Shown here piece after piece: positions 3,323 through 63,354 of a DNA stretch of 64,000 nucleotides. The number at the start of each line of letters is the position of its first letter. Within the stretch, counting starts at the first letter, position 1. The DNA lies in NCBI RefSeq assembly GCF_028641065.1, contig NC_073389.1:62001-126000 (forward strand), written 5' to 3'. Below the pieces are notes generated by a model, which did no database searches, had not been told where the DNA came from, and worked only from the letters and a program-made list of their open reading frames with translations. This DNA is from Leucoraja erinacea. Taxonomy: Eukaryota. The position numbers and the translations under genes were made by a program.

Positions 3323-3805
3323 GTTCTTTCGACCTGCTCCAGGGTTTCTAACTCTGTGTTGGAAGGTTTAAAGAATTATCCAGCACTGTCTGAATAAAGA
3401 ATTGATTTTAGCAGCAATGGTTTGAATCGAGTTTTCTTGAATTAGACTGGCAAAAAGAACTCATTTTAACATCAGGACCTGGTCAAATTCGGGGACAGTT
3501 TCTTCCCAGCTGTTATTAGACAACTGACCTATCCCACCAATAACTAGAGAGCATTCCTGAACTACTATCTACCTCATTAGAGACCATCAGATTATCTTTG
3601 ATTGGACTTTATCTTGCATAAACATTGTGCAGATTGTTGCCTTTATCGTGTATCTGTACACTTTGGACAGTTCGATTGTTGCTTTCTGCTGACTGGTTAG
3701 CACCCAGCAAAAAGCTGTTCACTGTACCTCGGTACACGTGACAATAAACTAAACTCAATTCAAGTGAAGGTGACAATAATAAACCCCTTTCTGTCTTTTG
3801 TTCAG

Positions 3806-4144
3806 ATGCATTCACCACTTGTGAACGAGCCACAGATGTAGAGATCGGCAAGGATGTCACCTTCAAGTGTACGTTTGAGTGCGACAATCCATGTGTACCG
3901 TGGGTGAGGTGGGAGAAGGATCAAGATGCCGGAATCTTGTACGAGTACAAGGAAGATAAAAGCGATGTCAGCAAACAACATGCCAACTACTCGGGAAGAA
4001 TTGAAGTCGACACATCCTCATTTAAAGAAGGAAAAGCATTCCTTACATTGAAGAATGTCGAAATCTGGGATGAGGGAAAGTACATTGTCAGTGTTAGCAC
4101 TGACAATGGATATGGACCTGGATTTGTCCTGCTATCTGTTTGGG
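3806..4144 (+). CDS. Gene A IgV exon: B7-family (B7-H4/VTCN1- or HHLA2-like) V domain
   Basis: Acceptor ctgtcttttgttcag|AT and donor TGGG|gtatgt; 339 nt, phase 1/1. Translation xAFTTCERATDVEIGKDVTFKCTFECDNPCVPWVRWEKDQDAGILYEYKEDKSDVSKQHANYSGRIEVDTSSFKEGKAFLTLKNVEIWDEGKYIVSVSTDNGYGPGFVLLSVW. B7-type motifs (C-T-F-E, W, Q-xxx-Y-x-G-R, G-x-A-x-L-x-L-K-N-V, D-E-G-x-Y) resemble VTCN1 as I recall it. The leader exon was not found and presumably lies upstream of the window. Confidence 0.88.
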
Positions 4145-8395: not shown

Positions 8396-8659
8396 CTGCT
8401 GCTGATCATGTCCGCGTTATCATGAATTCCGAAATGGACATGCTCTCTTGCCAGTCGTCAGGGTGGTATCCTGCCCCAACGGTGGAGTGGAAGGACAAAT
8501 CGGGGAACGATTTAAACAAACACAGTGAAATAATCATGAGAGAACCCAATGGCCATTTCAACGTGACCCACAATCTGAAAGAATATGACATACAGAATCA
8601 GTACATCTGCTCAATGTGGCATAAGCGGATGACAAAACAGTTTCGAGTGGTTTTCTCGA
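8396..8659 (+). CDS. Gene A IgC exon: B7/butyrophilin-type C domain
   Basis: Acceptor ttcttttcttgacag|CT and donor TCGA|gtaagt; 264 nt, phase 1/1, in frame with the V exon (G+CT=Ala). Translation AAADHVRVIMNSEMDMLSCQSSGWYPAPTVEWKDKSGNDL...NGHFNVTHNL...NQYICSMWH. It carries the CD80-like C-domain motif L-x-C-x-S-x-G-W-Y-P-x-P-x-V-x-W and Y-x-C. Confidence 0.88.
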
Positions 8660-14964: not shown

Positions 14965-15011
14965 ATGGACATCGCTTAATCCACGTGGATAGAAAAAAAT
15001 CTTCAGATTAA
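14965..15011 (+). CDS. Gene A candidate terminal exon (NGHRLIHVDRKKSSD-stop), no TM
   Basis: Strong polypyrimidine acceptor tttttccactttctttattttcag| in non-repeat sequence. Phase-1 compatible with the C exon (A+AT=Asn). Stop TAA at 15009-15011; AATAAA at 15375-15380. No transcript support is available. Confidence 0.45.
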
Positions 15012-29399: not shown

Positions 29400-32026
29400 A
29401 CAGGACCAACCACCCCAATGAACCCTCCCCACAGGTCCCACACAACCACTAACCCTCCTACCACCCCACAACCCCCACAACCAACACACAACACACCTGA
29501 CTTCACCACGCCCCCTACCTTCCCCCCCACAAACATCCAATGCACCACACAACACACCTTCATCACACACACACACTCCACACCCATCCCACCAACACAT
29601 CCACCCTACACATACACACACCACACCATCACCACCCTCTCACACCCACACAAACCACACACCCACACCCACACACCCCACCCACACCCACACCTACCCC
29701 ACCCACACACCTTCCACACCCCATCCACACACCAAAAACCCACCCCCACAAGCTCCCACACACCCCCACACCAAGGGCAACACACAAAACCACCCCCACA
29801 CAACCCCCACCACTCCAACAACACAACCGGTTTGCAACCAAAACCCCGTAGCCCGACGCACACACACACACCTACAGTGACCCCACCACCCACCTACCAC
29901 ACACACCCACTTCTTACCCAACCACACCCCTCCACACACACCCACCACACCAATCCCACCCACACACACACCCCACCCACACCACCACACCAACCCACCC
30001 ACACACCCCTACCAGCCCCATTTCCACCCCACCCACCACAACCCTGGGCTGACAACCCCATGGACCACACGCCTAAGACAGAACAACAGGGTCACCCACA
30101 CCCCAACACCACACACATGAAATCCCCTAACCCCCACACACCCCACCATGCCTCACCCCTCACCCTCAACTAAACAGGTTACAAACCAAACCACAGGACC
30201 CTCCACGTTAAAACAACCACCACACACCCCACACACCAACCACCCACAGAACACACACACACACTCAAACAAAACTCCAACAACGAAAACGGGGCCTGCC
30301 CACACCCCCACACCCCCCCCACCCACACTCAACACACCAAACACCCCCACACACCCCCACCGACACCACACACAACCCCACACCCCACCCCACACCCACC
30401 CACCACGGAGACACACACACACCAACACACACAACCACACCACACACACTCCGCGATGACCTACACCCCACACACCCCCCCACAATCTACCCCCACACCA
30501 CAACACACCACCCACCCACCTTCCCCCACCCAACAACACCAACCCTCACCTCGACCCACACCACACGCACACATACCACCCACCCACTACACACCAAACA
30601 CCACCGGCCCCCACACCACACCCCCCACACTTGTTCACACACACACCCATAAACCCCCATACCACACACCCCCCTACTACACAGAACACACCCACCCATA
30701 CACCCTTCACCACACACCCCAACACCCCCCACACCTCCACCACCCACACACCCACCAACAACCAACCTCACCCCCACACAACACAAAACCCCTCACTAAA
30801 CTCCCCTCACACCCCCCCCCACACCCCCCACACCACACACACCACCCCAGACACACAACACCCATACCACACACACCACACGACACACACCCACCCAAAC
30901 AACCCCAACAACCCACCACCAACCACCACTCCACCCCACACCAACCCACACAACCCACACACCTGACCCACCCACCCACTACCCCCAACCTCACCCCTCC
31001 CAACCCACCTACACACCCACACACCAAACAGAACCACCACACCATACACATCTCCACCTACCCCACACACCACACCACACCCCACAACCACAACACACCC
31101 CTAACCCACACACCACACACCACCCACCACACTCACCCACCCCACACACAACCCCAACACCACACACACCTACACACCCCCACACACCACACACTCCCCC
31201 CACCACGCACCCACCACACCTTCACCACCACCACACACACCCCACAACCCACCCACACACAATTAATCCACAATCCACACCCCAACCACACATACCCCCC
31301 ACCACCCCAACACACAACACACACCCACACCCCCACAGACCAACTTTACCACCCATCCTCCCCCACAACACCCCCACATACACCCCCCCACACCCGTACA
31401 AAGTACACACCACACCCCACACACACACCTCACACCACACCCCTCACCCCCAAACACCCACCACACTACCCACCACACCACTAACAACCCACACACAAAC
31501 ACATACAAAACTAACCTCCAACCCACACACTAATCACACAATATGACACTACCCACCCCACAACCACAAACACACCACACCACCTACCCCCACACCCACC
31601 ACAACCCCCCAACCCAAAACCAACACACCAACAAAAAACACATTAAACACACAAACAGCACCCCACACACAACACCACCACCCACCAAACAGTAACCATC
31701 ACACCCACACACACAACACACACACAATACACACACCACCCACACACACACCCACACCAACCCACACACCCCTAAAACACAACAACAACCCACACAACAC
31801 AACCCACCACCACCCACCACCCACACACTAAACACAACTCCTTACCACACACACACACACCCAACCACCACACGCAACACCACCACACACACACGAACAC
31901 ACCACACCCCATACACACACCCACACCCCCACCCACACACACCCACAACCACACCACCACACACAACACCACACAACCACACACACTACCCACCACCCCC
32001 CACATACACACCCACACCAACCACAC

Positions 32027-32058
<32 letters not shown>

Positions 32059-35000
32059 ACACACACACACACCACACAACACCCACACACCACACACACA
32101 CACCCACACACCCCAATACACCCAACACANNNNNNNNNNNNNNNNNNNNNNNNNNNNNNNNNNNNNNNNNNNNNNNNNNNNNNNNNNNNNNNNNNNNNNN
32201 NNNNNNNNNNNNNNNNNNNNNNNNNNNNNNNNNNNNNNNNNNNNNNNNNNNNNNNNNNNNNNNNNNNNNNNNNNNNNNNNNNNNNNNNNNNNNNNNNNNN
32301 NNNNNNNNNNNNNNNNNNNNNNNNNNNNNNNNNNNNNNNNNNNNNNNNNNNNNNNNNNNNNNNNNNNNNNNNNNNNNNNNNNNNNNNNNNNNNNNNNNNN
32401 NNNNNNNNNNNCCCCAAACACCCACCACACAACCCCCACACCACACCCACACCCCACCACCCCCCACACACAAAACACACCCACACACACCACACACACA
32501 CCCCCACACACCCACCACCTTCAAAAAAACCACTCNNNNNNNNNNNNNNNNNNNNNNNNNNNNNNNNNNNNNNNNNNNNNNNNNNNNNNNNNNNNNNNNN
32601 NNNNNNNNNNNNNNNNNNNNNNNNNNNNNNNNNNNNNNNNNNNNNNNNNNNNNNNNNNNNNNNNNNNNNNNNNNNNNNNNNNNNNNNNNNNNNNNNNNNN
32701 CACCACCCACACCCCACACACGCACTCACACACCCACAACCACACACCCACACTCACACCCACACAAAACCACACACTACACCCACACACACCACCACCA
32801 CCCAACATCACACCCACAACACACACCACACCACACACACAAACACACATCCCCCTCACACACTCCACACACCCACCACACACACACTACACACCAACCC
32901 ACACATACACCTAACACACCACCCACCACACACCACACCACACCCACACACACTACCCACACATACACACACACACACACACCACAACCACATAACACAC
33001 ACACACACACACCACACACACCCAAACACCACCAACACTACCACACCCCACCACACACCACACACACCACACACACCCACACCACACCACCANNNNNNNN
33101 NNNNNNNNNNNNNNNNNNNNNNNNNNNNNNNNNNNNNNNNNNNNNNNNNNNNNNNNNNNNNNNNNNNNNNNNNNNNNNNNNNNNNNNNNNNNNNNNNNNN
33201 NNNNNNNNNNNNNNNNNNNNNNNNNNNNNNNNNNNCAACACAACACACCACTACACACACCATACCACACCCACACACAACCCACACACAACCACAACAC
33301 CACACACAAAACCCACACACACCCACACCACACCACACACCCCACACACACTACACACAAACCCCTAACCACCCCACACATCACTCACAACACACACCCC
33401 AACACACACACCCAGACACAACACCCACACACCCCACACCACGCCTACCCCCACACCACACACATATAAACCCCACCTCCACCCACACCCACATACACAC
33501 AAACACACACACCACATACACATAACACAACCAGACCCAACCATACACCACACCCACACAACACACACACTCACCCCCAACACCCCCCCACATACAAACA
33601 ACACACACACCACACACTACCAACACACACCACCACCCACCTAACACACACCCAAAAACACCACACCACAAACACCACAAACACACACACCCACACACAC
33701 ACACAACACACACAACAAACACCCACACATAACACACAAACACCCCCACACACAATCCACACACACACACCCTACCCCCCACCCACACACCACACACCCA
33801 CACCACACACCAACCCCACACAACCACACCACACAAACATACCCCACACATCACACACACCACCCACCACTACACACACACACACCCACACACACACACA
33901 CACACACCATACACAAACACACACACCACACTACACACACACCACCACACACACCCAACACACACCAAACACCACACCACACACACCCCCATAAAACACA
34001 ACCAAAACACACACACCCAACACACCCACCTACACACTCACAACCCACCAACACACACACCACACTACACCACCTACCCCCACACCCCCAACAAACACAC
34101 ACCAAACACAACCCCCACACACACCACCAACCCACACGCACCAAACACACACCACAACACCCACACACACACCACACACCACAAACCCCCACCTTATACA
34201 CCCCACACACACACCCAAACTACACTACCCCACACCCAAACACACACCCCTCTACCACACCACACCCCACTACACACCCCCACTCCCTCCCCCCACACAC
34301 CAACCAACTACAACACACCACTATCCCCCACTACCCTAAACACACACTAACCCTACCCACCCAAACACACACCCAAACACAGACACACATACACACACCC
34401 ACAACACACCACAAACACCATAACCCACACCCCACACCAACCCCCCACCCAAAACCACCAACCACACACACACACATCACCCACACCCCACACACTACCC
34501 ACACACACACACATACACTACCACACACTTACACACCACAACACAAACCTAACAACACACACAAATCCACAAAACCAAAACCCCCTACCACACACACCAC
34601 ACACACCACACAACACATACACACCACACACACTTACCCCACCAACTATACAAACACCCACACACCACTAAACCACACACAACTATACACCCCAACCCCA
34701 CACAACACATAACAACACACCCCACACACCTCAACACACACCCAAAAACCAAACACCCACACTACACACACACTACCCCCCCACTGACAACCAACCCACC
34801 CCAACACCACCTAACCACACACCCAACACAACACACCTACACACCCCCACACACTAAAACACAACCCACACCATAAACCTACACACAAACCACCAAACCC
34901 ACACCTAACCACCCAAACACTACACACTAACACCACACCACAAACACCACCCCCAAACACACCACACCCCCTACACCAAAAAACACTAACCCAAACCACA

Positions 35001-36920
35001 CACAAACACCCTACACTGGAACCACTACACCACAACCCACCCAACACTAAAACCCCCACAAACACAACACAACAACACCAAACACCCCTAAACACCACAC
35101 TAAACCACACACACACACACACCTCCCAAACCCACCCCAAACACACAAACAACACACCCACACAAAACTCCTAAACAAAAAACCTTTAACCCTCCCCACT
35201 ACACCACAAACACCACTTAAACCCCAACAAACTCCTCTCCACACCTAAAACCCCTAACCCCAACCCTAAATACAACCTCCTAACCACAAAGCCAACACAC
35301 ACCTAAACACCCCCACTAAAAAACCCAGAACCACCCTAGAAACACACCCACACAACCACTACCTACCCAACAAAACACCAAAAACACTACCACACACAAA
35401 CCCCACCTCAACACACACCCCACTAACTCCACCTACACACACCAACACAACACACAAAACAAAAACCACACAACCACCACCTAAACACCTAACACTATAC
35501 ACACACAACGAACCACACACACCAAGAAACAACACAACACCTACAAAACACACACAACTTAATACACACAACTAACACCCACCACACCCAAACAAACCCA
35601 CAACAACACACACACCACACTAACACCCACCACACACCTACACCCCATCCACACACCACAAACACACAAAAACACCCCAAACACACCCACAAAACCACTA
35701 ACCCACTACATACCCCATACCTACACACCTATGCAAACACCTAACACACACCTACACCACCTAACATACACACCAACTCAACCAACACCTCACACCCACC
35801 ACACACCAACACACCTACACCCAAAAAACACACCCACATCTACACAAACACACCACCACACCACAACCACACACCCCCAACTACACCCACACAAACCATA
35901 CCCAAACATACACAACAAACACAAATACACCCTAAACAAACCCACCAACTACCACCACACAAAACCCCCCCACCCTAAACACACAACTACATACACCACA
36001 AGAACAACACATTAACACAACTTCAAGGACACACCACCTAACACACCCATAAACACAAACAACACAAAAACCCAACCACACACTAACACACACCCAAAAC
36101 ACACCCACAACACACCCCCCCACAACAAAACCCCCACCCCCAACACACACCAAAAACACACAACACACACCCTCTACCCCACAAACACCCTTACACAACT
36201 ACATACCCACCCCACACACAACACCTAACACCACTAAAAACACACACCACCACAGACTCACACCCCCACCCCACACCCAACCACCCCACCCCCTAAACCA
36301 CCCCAAACCCCCAACACTACCCTAAAAACACCTACACACCAACACACAAACCACCTTACCACACCCAACTAAACACACCACACTACAACACCATCACACA
36401 CCCACCACACACTTACCACAACAAACACACACCGATCGCAACACACCCCTACACACCCAACACAAACTACTAACCACTTACCCACCACCATCACACACCT
36501 TTACCAACACATACACCCACACCACCACACACACACCTACACCCCTGTCACTCCTCACCCAGTTAACTAAAATACACCCAGACCACATCACTACACAACT
36601 ACACATCATCCGCCTACCTACACTCCCTAACACATACACATACCACCTTACACATCTTATCACACCCAACACCCACACACACACGACACCCCACCCCTAT
36701 CCCCACCCTCCACATACCCACACACACTCCCACTTCTTTAAAGACACACCACCAACACCCACACACCACACCCCCCACACCCACAGCCCTGGACCAACGA
36801 ACCTCCCATTCCCACCTCTTCCCCACACCCACACCCCACCACAACCCCACACACTGTGGAGTCACAACCCTTTTTCCCGCTCCACCACCCCCCCCCACAC
36901 CCCCCCCCCTCCAGACCCAA
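29400..36920. repeat. CA-rich aperiodic low-complexity block with three N runs; likely low-quality consensus
   Basis: Almost G-free on the + strand with no stable period. N runs at 32130-32411, 32536-32700 and 33093-33235. Confidence 0.85.
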
Positions 36921-37329
36921 CCACCCTTATGTGGAGCACCTTATTCCATAGACCACCCCCACACACCTATACCCCAACCTGCACCTCCCACCATTTAAAT
37001 CTGGCCATGTGCCCACCTACCATGACGCATCCGAGTGCTGTGTCCCAATATACCCGGTACAGCCCTCACCCCCTAGCTCAGGTACATGGACCCACACCCA
37101 CACGTGCTGTGGTACTCCAGCTCAGATCTGTGGAGGTGTACCCAGGAAGTACATGTGCAGGATCTAATTACCCCCCCCCCTTTACCCACCTCCCTCATCC
37201 AAATTCCCACCTGAGACTTGCCATACCTTTATTCGTTCCATTCCCCGCCATTGTCACAGCTATGCCCGAGGAAGGGACGTCCAAGTCCTATGCCCGCCTC
37301 AGCCCACCCTGAAGTCCGGACAAGGTGTA

Positions 37330-42604: not shown

Positions 42605-42653
42605 ATGTCATCGTTTGCAAAATTCATCTTGGCACTCTGCCTCTTTCTCCCAG
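42605..42653 (+). CDS. Gene B exon 1: signal peptide (MSSFAKFILALCLFLP-G)
   Basis: ATG in good context (caaaATG), hydrophobic leader, consensus phase-1 donor CCAG|gtaagt. Confidence 0.85.
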
Positions 42654-43329
42654 GTAAGTCATTCATGTTCACCCTTGCCAACCTCTGTTCACGTTTTCTT
42701 CCTATAACTTGTTTCTATGGCTTTTGCATTAATGTTTGTTGCTTCTTTGCCGCCTTTTTTAAATGTCTTGTGTAATTTATGTTCAATTTGTTTTTGAATA
42801 TGTTTGTTTCAGTGTATGTGCATGTGATGCTGTTGCAAGCAAATTTTTAATTTAGTCTCAAAAGCAGAAATTGCAAATGCAGGTAAAATAAGTTTATGTC
42901 AGACAAGTTAACAAGACTAAGTTTAAGCGAAGGATTCCGACCCAAAACGTCACCCGTCATTTTTCTCCAGAGATGCTGCCTGACCCACTGAGTTACTCTT
43001 GCACCTTGTGTCTATCTTTAATATAAGCCACACAAGGAACTGTAGATTAATGTAAGTTTACATGAGGACGTTAACACAAATAAATCTAAGAGACACAAGA
43101 AGTGCAGATGCTGGAATCTTGAACAAAACACAGTACTGGAGTAACTCAGCGGTTCAGGCAGCATCTCTGGAGAACATGGACAGATGACGTTTCGCGTCGC
43201 GACCTTTCTTCAGATATGTTCGCCAGAGATTCTGCCAGCGCCGCTGCGTTTCTCCAGCACTTTGTGTCTGTCTTCGATATAGATCAGCATCTGCAGTTCC
43301 TTCCAACACAAGTGGTTACAGGTGAGAGA

Positions 43330-43361
<32 letters not shown>

Positions 43362-43447
43362 GCCTGGACCTCACTGTCCTTGTGCCCATGATAGTAAACT
43401 CGAGTTACTCGGAAGACGTCGTTAACTATGTTCACTTTCCGTGCCAG

Positions 43448-43783
43448 GGTCCGCTGTCGGTGTGAGGGTGAATCAGTCTCCTGCTGCTCTGACACGTCTC
43501 CGAGGACAGACAGCTACGTTCACCTGCTCCCTGCTTCCCGGAGAGGGGGAGGTAGTTTTAATGAGGCAATTCTGGTTTCGGGCGAAAGACAATCCGGAGC
43601 TCTGGGACAACAAGACCGAGAGTTTTCTGAAGACAGGCGGCCGACTGTCCGTGTCTCCGGGCTCGCTGGTCATTCGGGAGGTGACTGTGCACGATGCAGA
43701 CACTTACCATTGTGTGGTGCTGATAGATGATACATTCCCCTGGAAAACGTTTACAGGAAACGGAACCACATTACATATCCAAG
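43448..43783 (+). CDS. Gene B exon 2: germline-joined VJ-type IgV domain (NKp30/NCR3-, CD28-family-like)
   Basis: Acceptor ttcactttccgtgccag|GG and donor CAAG|gtaatt; 336 nt, phase 1/1. Translation GSAVGVRVNQSPAALTRLRGQTATFTCSLL...FWFR...GRLSVSPGSLVIREVTVHDADTYHCVVLIDDTFPWKTFTGNGTTLHIQ. Shows Q-S-P, B-strand Cys, WFR, D-x-x-x-Y-x-C and a J-like G-N-G-T-x-L in the same exon. Confidence 0.92.
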
Positions 43784-44467
43784 GTAATTAATATAGAACA
43801 TACAACAGGAACAGGCCCTTCAGCCCACTATGTTCGTGCGGCCCATGAGGCCAAGTTAAACATCCTTGAATATTCATGTGTCTATCCAAAAGTCTCTTAA
43901 ACTCTACGATCGTATCTGCCTCCACAGCCACTCCGAGATCTGATGCGATGGGGCTGGTGAATCACACGAACCCCAAGTTCCCTAAACCGAAACGCCGCCT
44001 GTCCATTCTCTCCACAGATGCGGCCTTAACCGCTGAGTTCCTCCAGCATTTTGTGTTTTGCTTAAGACTGCAGCGCCTGCAGTTCCACCTGCATTTCATC
44101 TCTCTCTATTAATGCTCATTTTCCGGCACAAACCAACCCAGTCTGACAAAGGGTCCCGAACTTAAACGTCATATATCCATGATTTCCAGAGATGCTGCCT
44201 GACCCGCTGAGTTACTCCAGCGCTTTGAGTCTAACTTTGGTAAAAATAAACCTCGCATCTACAGTTCCCCCTGTCTCCCTAATGATTCAAAATAGATAAT
44301 GAAAACAACCTCAACCTCGGTCGCAGTGTTTATATTCCCAACAGTTCTAGTGCTGGCATTTAATTCTCTTGATTTCCTTACAAGGAGGGAGTGTGGAAAC
44401 AAAAGCCTCTTTGTTTCTCTCAGTTTTCTCTAGTTTCCCTCTTGACATGACCGGCTGAAGGCGTCAA

Positions 44468-47027: not shown

Positions 47028-47327
47028 CGAAGCCTGACATCTCCCTGACCCTGGATCCCGGGGTAAAAGGCGCAGAGACGCGGAGCCTGATTTGTGTGGC
47101 CGCCGGATTCTTCCCGAGGGAGCTGAACATGTCCTGGGCTGTCGTGGGCCAGTTGTCCTATGAAACAGAAGCGGGTCCGCTGAGGGAGAATGAGGATGGA
47201 AGCTTCAACGTGAGCTCCCGGCTGCGGCTCACCGGCCCTCGGCTAGAGGCGGGCATGGTCGTCACCTGCCTGGTTCAGCACCTCACCGGGACGGGCTCGG
47301 TGAGCGAACGTTTCCCTCCCATCCCAA
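47028..47327 (+). CDS. Gene B exon 3: C1-set Ig domain
   Basis: Acceptor ttttcctactttacgcag|CG and donor CCAA|gtaagt; 300 nt, phase 1/1. Translation AKPDISLTL...SLICVAAGFFPRELNMSW...ENEDGSFNVSSRLRL...VVTCLVQH.... Classic C1 motifs L-x-C-x-A-x-G-F-F-P, W, N-x-D-G-S-F and C-x-V-x-H. Confidence 0.92.
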
Positions 47328-57854: not shown

Positions 57855-57956
57855 GATCCTCCGAGTATTATTTCATTCTACTGAGTCTGATCCTAATAGT
57901 ACCAATATGCGTCTGGATTGTGTATAATTACCACAGTAAATTGAAGAAAGGAAAAG
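57855..57956 (+). CDS. Gene B exon 4: transmembrane exon
   Basis: Acceptor gattttcaag|GA and donor AAAG|gtaatg; 102 nt, phase 1/1. Translation RSSEYYFILLSLILIVPICVWIVYNYHSKLKKGK: about 20 uncharged hydrophobic residues followed by basic stop-transfer residues. Confidence 0.82.
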
Positions 57957-58382: not shown

Positions 58383-58450
58383 AATCATCTGTCCATGACG
58401 CAACTGTTGATATTCAAAGCATGAGAAAACAAAAAAACTCAGTAAATGAG
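58383..58450 (+). CDS. Gene B exon 5: cytoplasmic exon (ESSVHDATVDIQSMRKQKNSVNE)
   Basis: Acceptor atatttttatag|AA and consensus donor GAG|gtgagt; 68 nt. Phase 1/0 is exactly what is needed to join exon 4 to the terminal exon in frame. Confidence 0.75.
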
Positions 58451-62605: not shown

Positions 62606-62985
62606 TTGAGAAATAGAAGGCATATGTTTAATGTGAGAGGGAAAAACCTGAGGGGCAACTTTATCAATCAGAGGGTGGTGGGTATATGGAACGAACCACC
62701 TGAGGAGGTAGTTGAGGCAGGAAATATAACACCATTTAAAATATATTTGGACAGGTGCATGGACAGGTGCGTGGACGGGTGCATGGACGGGTGCATGGAC
62801 AGGAAAAGTTTACAGGGACGAGAGCCAACCACGGGCAAATGGAACATGTTTAGATGGGGCATCTTAGTCGGCATAGACCAGTTGGGCCGATGGGTCTGTT
62901 TCCATGCTGTATAACTCTATGATATGAATATAACACAACTAAATACAAGTGAGCCTTATTGTTACTTGTTATTTTTCTGTTACAG

Positions 62986-63132
62986 GATAATGTTTCAATA
63001 AACAATGAAAATCTGCATTATGCGCCTGTTTATTTCAACAAGGGACAGCGAAGACAGGAATTGAGATGGACCGAGCAATCCCAAGAAACAGAATATGCCG
63101 TCTTAAAGGTCAAAGATAAAAATAATTTATGA
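62986..63132 (+). CDS. Gene B exon 6: terminal cytoplasmic exon with ITIM and ITSM-like motif
   Basis: Acceptor ttatttttctgttacag|GAT, phase 0. Translation DNVSINNENLHYAPVYFNKGQRRQELRWTEQSQETEYAVLKVKDKNNL-TGA. LHYAPV fits the ITIM consensus and TEYAVL is ITSM-like. The six exons sum to 1002 nt, an open 333-aa frame. Confidence 0.85.
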   Translation, partial: DNVSINNENLHYAPVYFNKGQRRQELRWTEQSQETEYAVLKVKDKNNL

Positions 63133-63151
63133 AGAGCCCATAACCCAGAGT

Positions 63152-63157
63152 AATAAA
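63152..63157 (+). terminator. Candidate polyadenylation signal of gene B
   Basis: AATAAA about 20 nt after the TGA stop; motif match only. Confidence 0.35.
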
Positions 63158-63354
63158 TTGTCCCTCTTCAACGAGACCACAAACTGATAATTATCATAAA
63201 ACCACACACTCTTCTCGCAAACAATATACGTAGAATATAAGAAACAGAAACTAGAGGCTGTAGCACAGCTTCTGAAACTTAATTCTCTATTCAATTACTT
63301 TCCTTAAGCTCGATCTGACTCGGCCTTGATCGCCTTCTCAGAGTTCCAAATGTT

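What the first reader, a model, noticed from the sequence alone, without database searches (positions are those of the whole stretch)
63013..63105. ITIM-ITSM tyrosine spacing of exactly 25 residues, as in PD-1
Seen in sequence: LHYAPVYF and QETEYAVL, with the tyrosines at residues 12 and 37 of the last exon. Established: human PD-1 has VDYGELDF (Y223) and QTEYATI (Y248), also 25 apart, with the same Phe at Y+5, and it recruits SHP-2. Inference: the tail module is shared or convergent with PD-1, CD33-related Siglecs and SIRP-alpha. TEYAVL ends in L rather than the strict V/I.
Basis: partly seen in the sequence, partly recalled or inferred. Interest (0 to 1): 0.7.

Follow-up and report, generated by a model that had tools for sequence, protein, structure and literature searches.

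The report
Skate inhibitory receptor with activating-type twins
These two tyrosine motifs end an intact skate gene for an antibody-like surface receptor that likely switches immune cells off; the 25-residue match to PD-1 is a coincidence (shark and ray relatives have 28), and two near-identical copies of the gene look like its likely 'on' partners.

Summary
The exon is the last of a six-exon, in-phase gene: leader, unsplit VJ-type IgV, IgC1, membrane anchor, two tail exons, 333 aa. It is not PD-1. The genome's PD-1 lies on another contig (C14) with one V domain.

Both tyrosines are kept in 12 database proteins from 9 shark and ray species (spacing 28 in all) and 2 amphibian proteins (27). The skate's 25 comes from a 3-residue gap in the linker, so 'exactly 25' is incidental; 8 of 14 human ITIM/ITSM receptors lie at 23-26.

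The more interesting result lies outside the finding. Two copies on unplaced contigs (V 91% and 88% identical) carry a Leu-to-Arg change in the membrane anchor and stops that remove both motifs, the textbook layout of an activating partner. Sawfish, stingray and manta have Arg-anchored partners built from a different anchor sequence. The gene sits between a B7-H4-like gene and a Golgi mannosidase gene.

Best reading: the inhibitory member of a small paired-receptor family, already auto-annotated 'SIRP-like' in relatives; I found no paper on it. Splicing, signalling and ligand are untested.

The parts
42605..42653 (+). Exon 1: start codon and leader peptide (phase 1)
   Evidence: ATG, hydrophobic leader, GT donor; same exon in both copies
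43448..43783 (+). Exon 2: IgV domain with germline-joined J-like G strand (FTGNGT); short V fold
   Evidence: Pfam V-set 2.3e-7; model pLDDT 86; no exact RSS heptamer or nonamer in 43301-44200
47028..47327 (+). Exon 3: IgC1 domain
   Evidence: Pfam C1-set 1.1e-12; AG/GT, phase 1
57855..57956 (+). Exon 4: uncharged transmembrane segment; the Leu codon at 57878-57880 is Arg in the two copies
   Evidence: Arg variant also in run X1
58383..58450 (+). Exon 5: first cytoplasmic exon, ends in phase 0
   Evidence: aligns with relatives' tails (one search shows the flanking exons; the tails)
62986..63132 (+). Exon 6: last coding exon with ITIM (Tyr codon 63019) and ITSM-like motif (Tyr codon 63094), stop at 63130-63132
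   Evidence: Y12, A13, Y37, K41 invariant in a 12-row alignment
63013..63105 (+). The finding: ITIM, linker, ITSM-like motif; linker 3 residues shorter than in sharks and rays
63128..63225 (+). Out-of-frame relic of the longer ancestral tail (second tyrosine pair of sharks), now overlapping the stop and 3' UTR; AATAAA at 63152
   Evidence: tblastn of catshark and sevengill proteins continues in other frames past the stop; three-frame view; poly(A) signal

Best explanation
The stretch is the two-tyrosine tail of an intact skate VJ-C1 membrane receptor gene that likely acts as the inhibitory member of a small paired-receptor family. Shown: gene anatomy, frame, motif conservation, and two copies with an Arg anchor and cut tails. 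Inferred: after ligand binds the V domain, a Src-family kinase phosphorylates both tyrosines, and the two SH2 domains of SHP-1 or SHP-2 bind them together and damp activation. Ala at pY+1 of the ITIM predicts SHP-1 recruitment as well, as in BTLA and unlike human PD-1. The linker only has to be long enough (25-28 in this family). Also inferred: the two copies pair through the Arg with an FcR-gamma/CD3-zeta-type adaptor and signal 'on'.
For: Six exons, all GT-AG and in phase, 333 aa. V-set and C1-set domains. Both tyrosines in 12 proteins of 9 elasmobranch species and 2 amphibian proteins, of 22 database proteins examined; the other 8 lack the pair. Pair rare by chance. Bivalent SH2 binding, the pY+1 Ala rule and 'similar spacing in numerous receptors' are in PMC8631942 (passages; supplement 4). 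Copies on C1303 and C1596 keep leader, V, C1 and anchor exons open with AG/GT sites, share Leu-to-Arg in the anchor, and stop at or before the ITIM tyrosine. Short tail plus Arg or Lys is the stated mark of activating paired receptors (PMC3533184 passages). Against the window copy, intron flanks differ 2-5% around V and C1 but 14-16% around the anchor and first tail exon, while those two exons differ in about 6-8% of letters. Three rays have Arg-anchored short-tailed relatives. Two zeta-type adaptor anchor exons exist in this genome.
Against: No signalling or binding assay exists; the splice model rests on sequence and on relatives' automatic gene models. The second motif fails the strict ITSM consensus (Leu at +3), and PMC12151841 reports that SHP-2 C-SH2 prefers Ile there. 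The skate has lost the second tyrosine pair that sharks keep. The copies could be decaying duplicates: substitution counts are small, V pN/pS against the window copy is about 0.6, C1596 gains an extra Cys in C1, and C1303 gains a motif (INYENL) that also fits the ITIM consensus.
Confidence: 0.75

Rival explanations
1. The tail module is shared by descent with PD-1, or this gene is a PD-1 paralogue, with the 25-residue spacing as its mark.
For: Spacing 25 and Phe at +5 match human PD-1. This genome's PD-1 also has 25, as do catshark and thorny skate PD-1 (counted by eye from supplement 1 of PMC12151841). A PD-1 structure is among the tied fold matches (Z 12.2, rmsd 2.0, 95 aligned).
Against: PD-1 has one V and a stalk; this gene has V plus C1. 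PD-1 lies on C14, this gene on C13. The family spacing is 28 or 27, and the skate value comes from a 3-residue gap. PD-1's V falls outside the family in the V tree, on a long branch.
Confidence: 0.04
2. A single inhibitory receptor as described, but the two copies are non-functional duplicates whose Arg and stops are decay.
For: Premature stops in both copies, a 13-nt deletion after the stop in C1596 and an insertion of about 214 nt in both. Both copies lie on unplaced contigs in a transposon-rich region.
Against: All stops and the frameshift fall in the tail, none in leader, V, C1 or anchor. Anchor and first tail exon are better kept than their introns. The same Arg is in a separate public run. 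Arg-anchored short partners occur in three rays.
Confidence: 0.3
3. The gene is the elasmobranch orthologue of SIRP-alpha, with the copies as SIRP-beta equivalents.
For: Database names 'PTPNS1-like' and 'SIRP-beta-1-like'. Top Atlas clusters are SIRP-alpha (0.97, 0.96). SIRP-alpha ranks third in the PDB profile search. Sharks have a four-motif tail.
Against: One C1 in most members (two in Hypanus and Mobula birostris). UrIg2 and an antibody chain outrank SIRP in the same search. SEP-domain genes, one of which should be the SIRP neighbour NSFL1C (recalled), lie on C21 and C4, not C13. The local neighbours are B7-H4-like and Golgi mannosidase genes. The partners use Arg, whereas SIRP-beta1 uses Lys with DAP12 (recalled).
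Confidence: 0.12
4. The gene is an elasmobranch member of the PRARP / 'VJC1' non-rearranging antigen-receptor-like genes already named in tetrapods.
For: Unsplit VJ plus one C1 fits the class described in PMC10751288 (passages). PRARP tails with two ITIM/ITSM-type motifs are recalled from Fu et al. 2019. Amphibian relatives align end to end (26% over 369 columns, E 5e-27).
Against: No PRARP sequence came up in any search, and the papers were not held. PMC10751288 places PRARP in the MHC; here all 15 MHC class I matches are on other contigs, and C13 carries APP.
Confidence: 0.2

Closest known systems
RefSeq automatic models in other elasmobranchs, e.g. XP_038658211.1 (Scyliorhinus, 'PTPNS1-like'), XP_051870356.1 and XP_051869794.1 (Pristis), XP_059824346.1 (Hypanus)
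   Same: Same V-C1-anchor-tail layout, V 48-65% identical, same two motifs. These are the likely orthologues.
   Different: Linker 28, not 25. Sharks keep a second tyrosine pair. The rays' Arg-anchored partners use a different anchor sequence from the skate's.
SIRP-alpha / SIRP-beta paired receptors
   Same: VJ-like V with C1 domain(s), tandem ITIM/ITSM tail (spacing 24), near-identical short-tailed partner.
   Different: Usually one C1; neighbours are B7-H4-like and mannosidase genes; partner has Arg near the outer end of the anchor; CD47 binding untested.
PD-1 (PDCD1) and BTLA
   Same: ITIM followed by an ITSM-type motif 25 residues on; Ala at pY+1 as in BTLA and in shark and skate PD-1.
   Different: Extra C1 domain, other chromosome, spacing not fixed in the family, Leu at +3, activating-type twins.
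PRARP / VJC1, NKp30 and UrIg (non-rearranging VJ genes)
   Same: Unsplit VJ exon without an exact RSS; C1 as in PRARP and UrIg.
   Different: Not shown to be MHC-linked; no sequence comparison with PRARP was possible; UrIg2 has ten Ig domains.
Arg-anchored activating partners such as LILRA and DCAR with FcR-gamma
   Same: Arg in the anchor plus a short tail (PMC3533184).
   Different: Different ectodomain class; the skate Arg is a single codon change inside this family.

Membership tests
ITIM/ITSM inhibitory receptors | ITIM consensus (S/I/V/L)xYxx(I/V/L) in a cytoplasmic tail | tested here: met
   LHYAPV, 45 residues after the anchor; consensus from PMC12151841
ITIM/ITSM inhibitory receptors | Strict ITSM TxYxx(V/I) | tested here: not met
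   TEYAVL; Leu at +3 in 13 of 14 relatives, Thr at -2 in 10 of 14
ITIM/ITSM inhibitory receptors | Tyrosines conserved in orthologues at a spacing suited to tandem SH2 domains | tested here: met
   27-28 in 14 of 14 with both motifs; forward distances 11-35 in 14 human receptors
ITIM/ITSM inhibitory receptors | SHP-1/SHP-2 recruitment and inhibition | not testable with these tools
   needs phosphopeptide and cell assays
PD-1 | Single IgV plus Ser/Thr-rich stalk | tested here: not met
   V plus C1, no stalk exon (definition)
PD-1 | Orthology to published shark and skate PD-1 | tested here: not met
   a separate PD-1 on C14 whose tail exon reads like the published thorny skate sequence
PD-1 | V-domain fold closest to PD-1 | tested here: inconclusive
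   Z 13.2-11.2 over 50 rows; NCAM, VNAR, CD79b, TCR and PD-1 (12.2, rmsd 2.0, 95 aligned) tied
SIRP | V-C1-C1 ectodomain | tested here: not met
   one C1 in the skate gene; two C1 repeats only in Hypanus and Mobula birostris
SIRP | Location beside NSFL1C (recalled) | tested here: not met
   SEP-domain matches on C21 and C4 only; which one is NSFL1C was not determined
SIRP | Sequence clade with SIRPs | tested here: inconclusive
   SIRP-alpha third behind UrIg2 and an antibody chain; Atlas top hits are SIRP; no SIRP rows in my trees
SIRP | Binds CD47 | not tested
   no complex prediction or assay run
PRARP / VJC1 | Unsplit VJ exon plus one C1 plus tyrosine tail | tested here: met
   the PRARP tail is recalled, paper not held
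PRARP / VJC1 | Orthology or synteny with PRARP | not testable with these tools
   no PRARP sequence retrieved; papers not held
Paired receptors | Near-identical ectodomains with ITIM versus charged anchor and short tail | tested here: met
   V 91% and 88%, C1 97% and 96%; Arg anchor; tails of 45 and 27 residues
Paired receptors | Members clustered on one chromosome | tested here: inconclusive
   the copies are on unplaced contigs; parts of C1303 match the start of C13 at 87-97%, which may be repeats
Paired receptors | Adaptor association and activation | not testable with these tools
   adaptor-type exons are present; association untested

The most novel reading that the evidence does not exclude
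An old, undescribed VJ-C1 checkpoint receptor sits beside the B7-H4-like gene and has built its activating partner twice. Sawfish, stingray and manta use one Arg-bearing anchor sequence; this skate shows no such exon and has remade partners from the inhibitory gene itself by one Leu-to-Arg change plus tail-cutting stops. That would be the birth of an activating receptor caught in a few mutations. A further guess, that the neighbouring B7-H4-like protein is the ligand, rests on position alone (about 0.05).
Probability: 0.35. Interest if true: 0.6.

Novelty: new member of a known kind. Interest (0 to 1): 0.35.

Why it matters
The headline match to PD-1 does not matter: it is a linker-length coincidence. 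The locus matters modestly. It is a conserved inhibitory receptor of sharks, rays and probably amphibians that databases mislabel as SIRP, Ig kappa or TCR beta. It gives a natural series (25, 27, 28 residues; two versus four motifs) for testing how much SHP binding depends on spacing. The skate copies give a minimal test of how an inhibitory receptor turns into an activating one.

Tried and rejected
Expression: no RNA holder was listed, so this says nothing on expression. Laying the one run X1 on 19.9 kb was swamped by repeats and gave no splice joints.

Homologue searches: the word-index search with the V exon found none among 403 candidates; the HMMER search found them. The third search, with amphibian rows, added only a basking shark protein; no bony-fish or amniote member appeared, which is weak evidence.

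Structure: fold searches cannot separate VNAR, NKp30, TCR, SIRP and PD-1. No complex prediction was run, because adjacency was my only reason to pair the receptor with the B7-H4-like protein.

Genome context: the C25 cluster of C1 hits is germline-joined Ig light chain by appearance, not this family. Pfam scans of flanking ORFs (150 of 708; 100 of 214) gave mobile elements and one mannosidase gene. IFT57 is on C2, so it gave no link to the CD47/HHLA2 region. No extra phase-0 exon candidate was found between exons 5 and 6, and the one phase-1 candidate between exons 3 and 4 lies in a repeat-like ORF. A local search for the rays' Arg anchor exon gave best E 0.24 (only the top 30 rows were printed, all for the sawfish query).

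Other motifs: the YFN (Grb2-type) motif at Y301 is not conserved.

Trees left out six isoform or partial proteins and most C25 domains.

Literature: searches found no paper on this family. Fu 2019, Ohta 2019, Flajnik 2023, Ohta 2015 and Flajnik 2012 were not held and could name it. The supplement of PMC10751288 has none of five terms tried.

Full report
1. The observation. Window 63013-63105 reads LHYAPVYF...QETEYAVL. An AG acceptor ends at 62985; the tyrosines are residues 12 and 37 of the exon, 25 apart, with Phe at +5 of the first. The pair is not chance: 3 such pairs in about 892,000 six-frame codons, this one included, and 0.00032 of 200,000 shuffles. That regex misses PD-1's own exon, whose second motif lacks Thr at -2.

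2. The gene. Six exons on the + strand are all GT-AG and in phase: leader 42605-42653, V 43448-43783, C1 47028-47327, anchor 57855-57956, tail 58383-58450 and 62986-63132. They give 333 aa, with AATAAA at 63152. Pfam calls the domains V-set and C1-set. The V exon carries its own J-like strand, and no exact RSS word flanks it. The window is G000:C13:62001-126000, near the start of a 56-Mb contig. The animal is a skate: its PD-1 tail exon reads like the published thorny skate one (compared by eye).

3. Relatives. HMMER found RefSeq models from sawfish, stingray, catshark and electric ray, and a caecilian and a frog protein; a profile search added more sharks and rays. Of 22 database proteins examined, 14 have both motifs: 12 from 9 elasmobranch species, all spaced 28, and 2 amphibian, both 27. 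The other 8 are short isoforms, partial models or short-tailed paralogues. The skate exon has a 3-residue gap in the linker, shared by copy C1303. Sawfish and stingray isoforms switch to another ending at the same junction, which supports the exon boundary; I did not see the evidence behind those models. Sharks continue into a second tyrosine pair; in the skate this survives out of frame past the stop. Amphibian orthology is probable only: end-to-end alignment but V-tree support of 83/81 on long branches.

4. Why 25 is not a PD-1 mark. Supplement 4 of PMC8631942 lists 14 human receptors: exactly +25 in 2 (PD-1, BTLA), 23-26 in 8. The paper ties similar spacings to bivalent SH2 binding (passages). 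PD-1 is one V plus a stalk (PMC12151841, parts 1-2 of 8 and passages). A pattern from the published shark and skate PD-1 tails hit once in this genome, on C14, in an exon with its own 25 spacing and a V exon upstream. So PD-1 is a separate gene. Phe at +5 occurs in 5 of 9 elasmobranch species of this family and not in skate PD-1.

5. The copies. Searches with the last exon, the V exon and a sawfish protein each returned the same three loci as close matches: the window, C1303 and C1596 (lower bounds). Both copies keep open leader, V, C1 and anchor exons with AG/GT sites, and both change Leu to Arg at the fifth anchor residue. C1303 stops at the ITIM tyrosine codon, just after a new INYENL; C1596 stops in exon 5, 18 nt before the last junction, leaving no distal tyrosine. 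Intron flanks differ from the window copy by 2-5% around V and C1 but 14-16% around the anchor and exon 5. I infer that the ectodomain half is homogenised while the signalling half has diverged. Run X1 holds the Arg variant in one contig; at a flanking site the copy-type letter has depth 54 of 82, a weak hint of two loci. X1's relation to the assembly is unknown, and depth is no copy number. Sawfish, Hemitrygon and Mobula hypostoma have short-tailed proteins with an Arg in a different, shared anchor sequence. Ectodomains group by lineage: the three skate copies 100/100, and the sawfish pair with identical C1. Two zeta-family anchor exons lie on C13 and C24.

6. Place. Upstream in the window is a V-C gene whose best solved match is B7-H4/VTCN1 (E 6.8e-12, next 3e-7). 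Downstream, at about C13:368-443 kb, are exons of a Golgi alpha-1,2-mannosidase. Human VTCN1 and MAN1A2 are neighbours (recalled). C13 also carries APP. MHC class I matches are all on other contigs (15 of 15), SEP genes on C21 and C4, and PD-1 on C14.

7. Mechanism. Shown: anatomy, frame, conservation, copies. From established knowledge: phosphorylated tandem motifs bind both SH2 domains of SHP-1/2; Ala at pY+1 favours SHP-1; Glu at pY-1 argues against a SAP switch; Arg plus a short tail marks adaptor-coupled activating partners (PMC3533184 passages). Inferred: this receptor inhibits, the copies activate, and the ligand is unknown. Confidence 0.75 overall; about 0.9 for an inhibitory tail and 0.55 for working activating copies.

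8. Known or new. It works like SIRP-alpha, BTLA or PD-1 at the tail. It fails PD-1 membership and two SIRP tests, and PRARP orthology could not be tested. Relatives are machine-annotated under misleading names. Ten paper searches found no description, but five key papers were not held. I also read passages of PMC10751288, PMC11599192, PMC12227049 and PMC13262535. Earlier notes of this scan describe larger V-C1 paired families in sharks and skates.

9. Verdict. Observation confirmed; PD-1 link not supported; a real, likely inhibitory paired receptor. Novelty: new member of a known kind. Interest 0.35.

Noticed in passing
window about 3800-4141 and 8400-8659 (+); candidate last exon at 14965: B7-H4/VTCN1-like gene. 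Its V domain lacks the F-strand Cys. No membrane-anchor exon stood out among the acceptor candidates up to 25000; a short terminal exon candidate at 14965 would make it anchorless.
   Followed up: partly
G000:C13:5512718-5515113 and 5575014-5577515 (-), L077/L083: Two tandem genes with a CD28H-like V (EIPPP before the G strand) followed by a C1 domain; the CD28 family is described as V-only. A V-like exon on the + strand is duplicated with them. No anchor exon was found.
   Followed up: partly
G000:C1:125271262-125271645 (+), L009: V exon with an EIPPP motif, probably a CD28H-like gene.
   Followed up: no
G000:C14:9325804 and 9338233-9338664 (-), L064: This genome's PD-1: tail exon with tyrosines 25 apart and Ser at -2 of the second motif; V exon about 12 kb upstream.
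   Followed up: yes
G000:C13 about 329000-333200 (-), L099: Endogenous retrovirus-like element with RT, RNase H, integrase and env matches in separate ORFs. Observed only.
   Followed up: no
G000:C25:22.29-22.45 Mb: Cluster of germline-joined Ig light-chain-like V-J and C genes.
   Followed up: partly
G000:C333:22094 (+), L062: VJ-type V exon that looks NKp30-like by eye; family not tested.
   Followed up: no
window about 29400-37000: Long low-complexity C/A-rich tract with three N runs (32130-32411, 32536-32700, 33093-33235) between the two immune genes.
   Followed up: no
P0062, P0060, P0001, P0003: RefSeq isoforms of relatives skip the anchor exon (Heptranchias, Heterodontus) or swap the tyrosine exon for a short ending (Pristis, Hypanus).
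   Followed up: no
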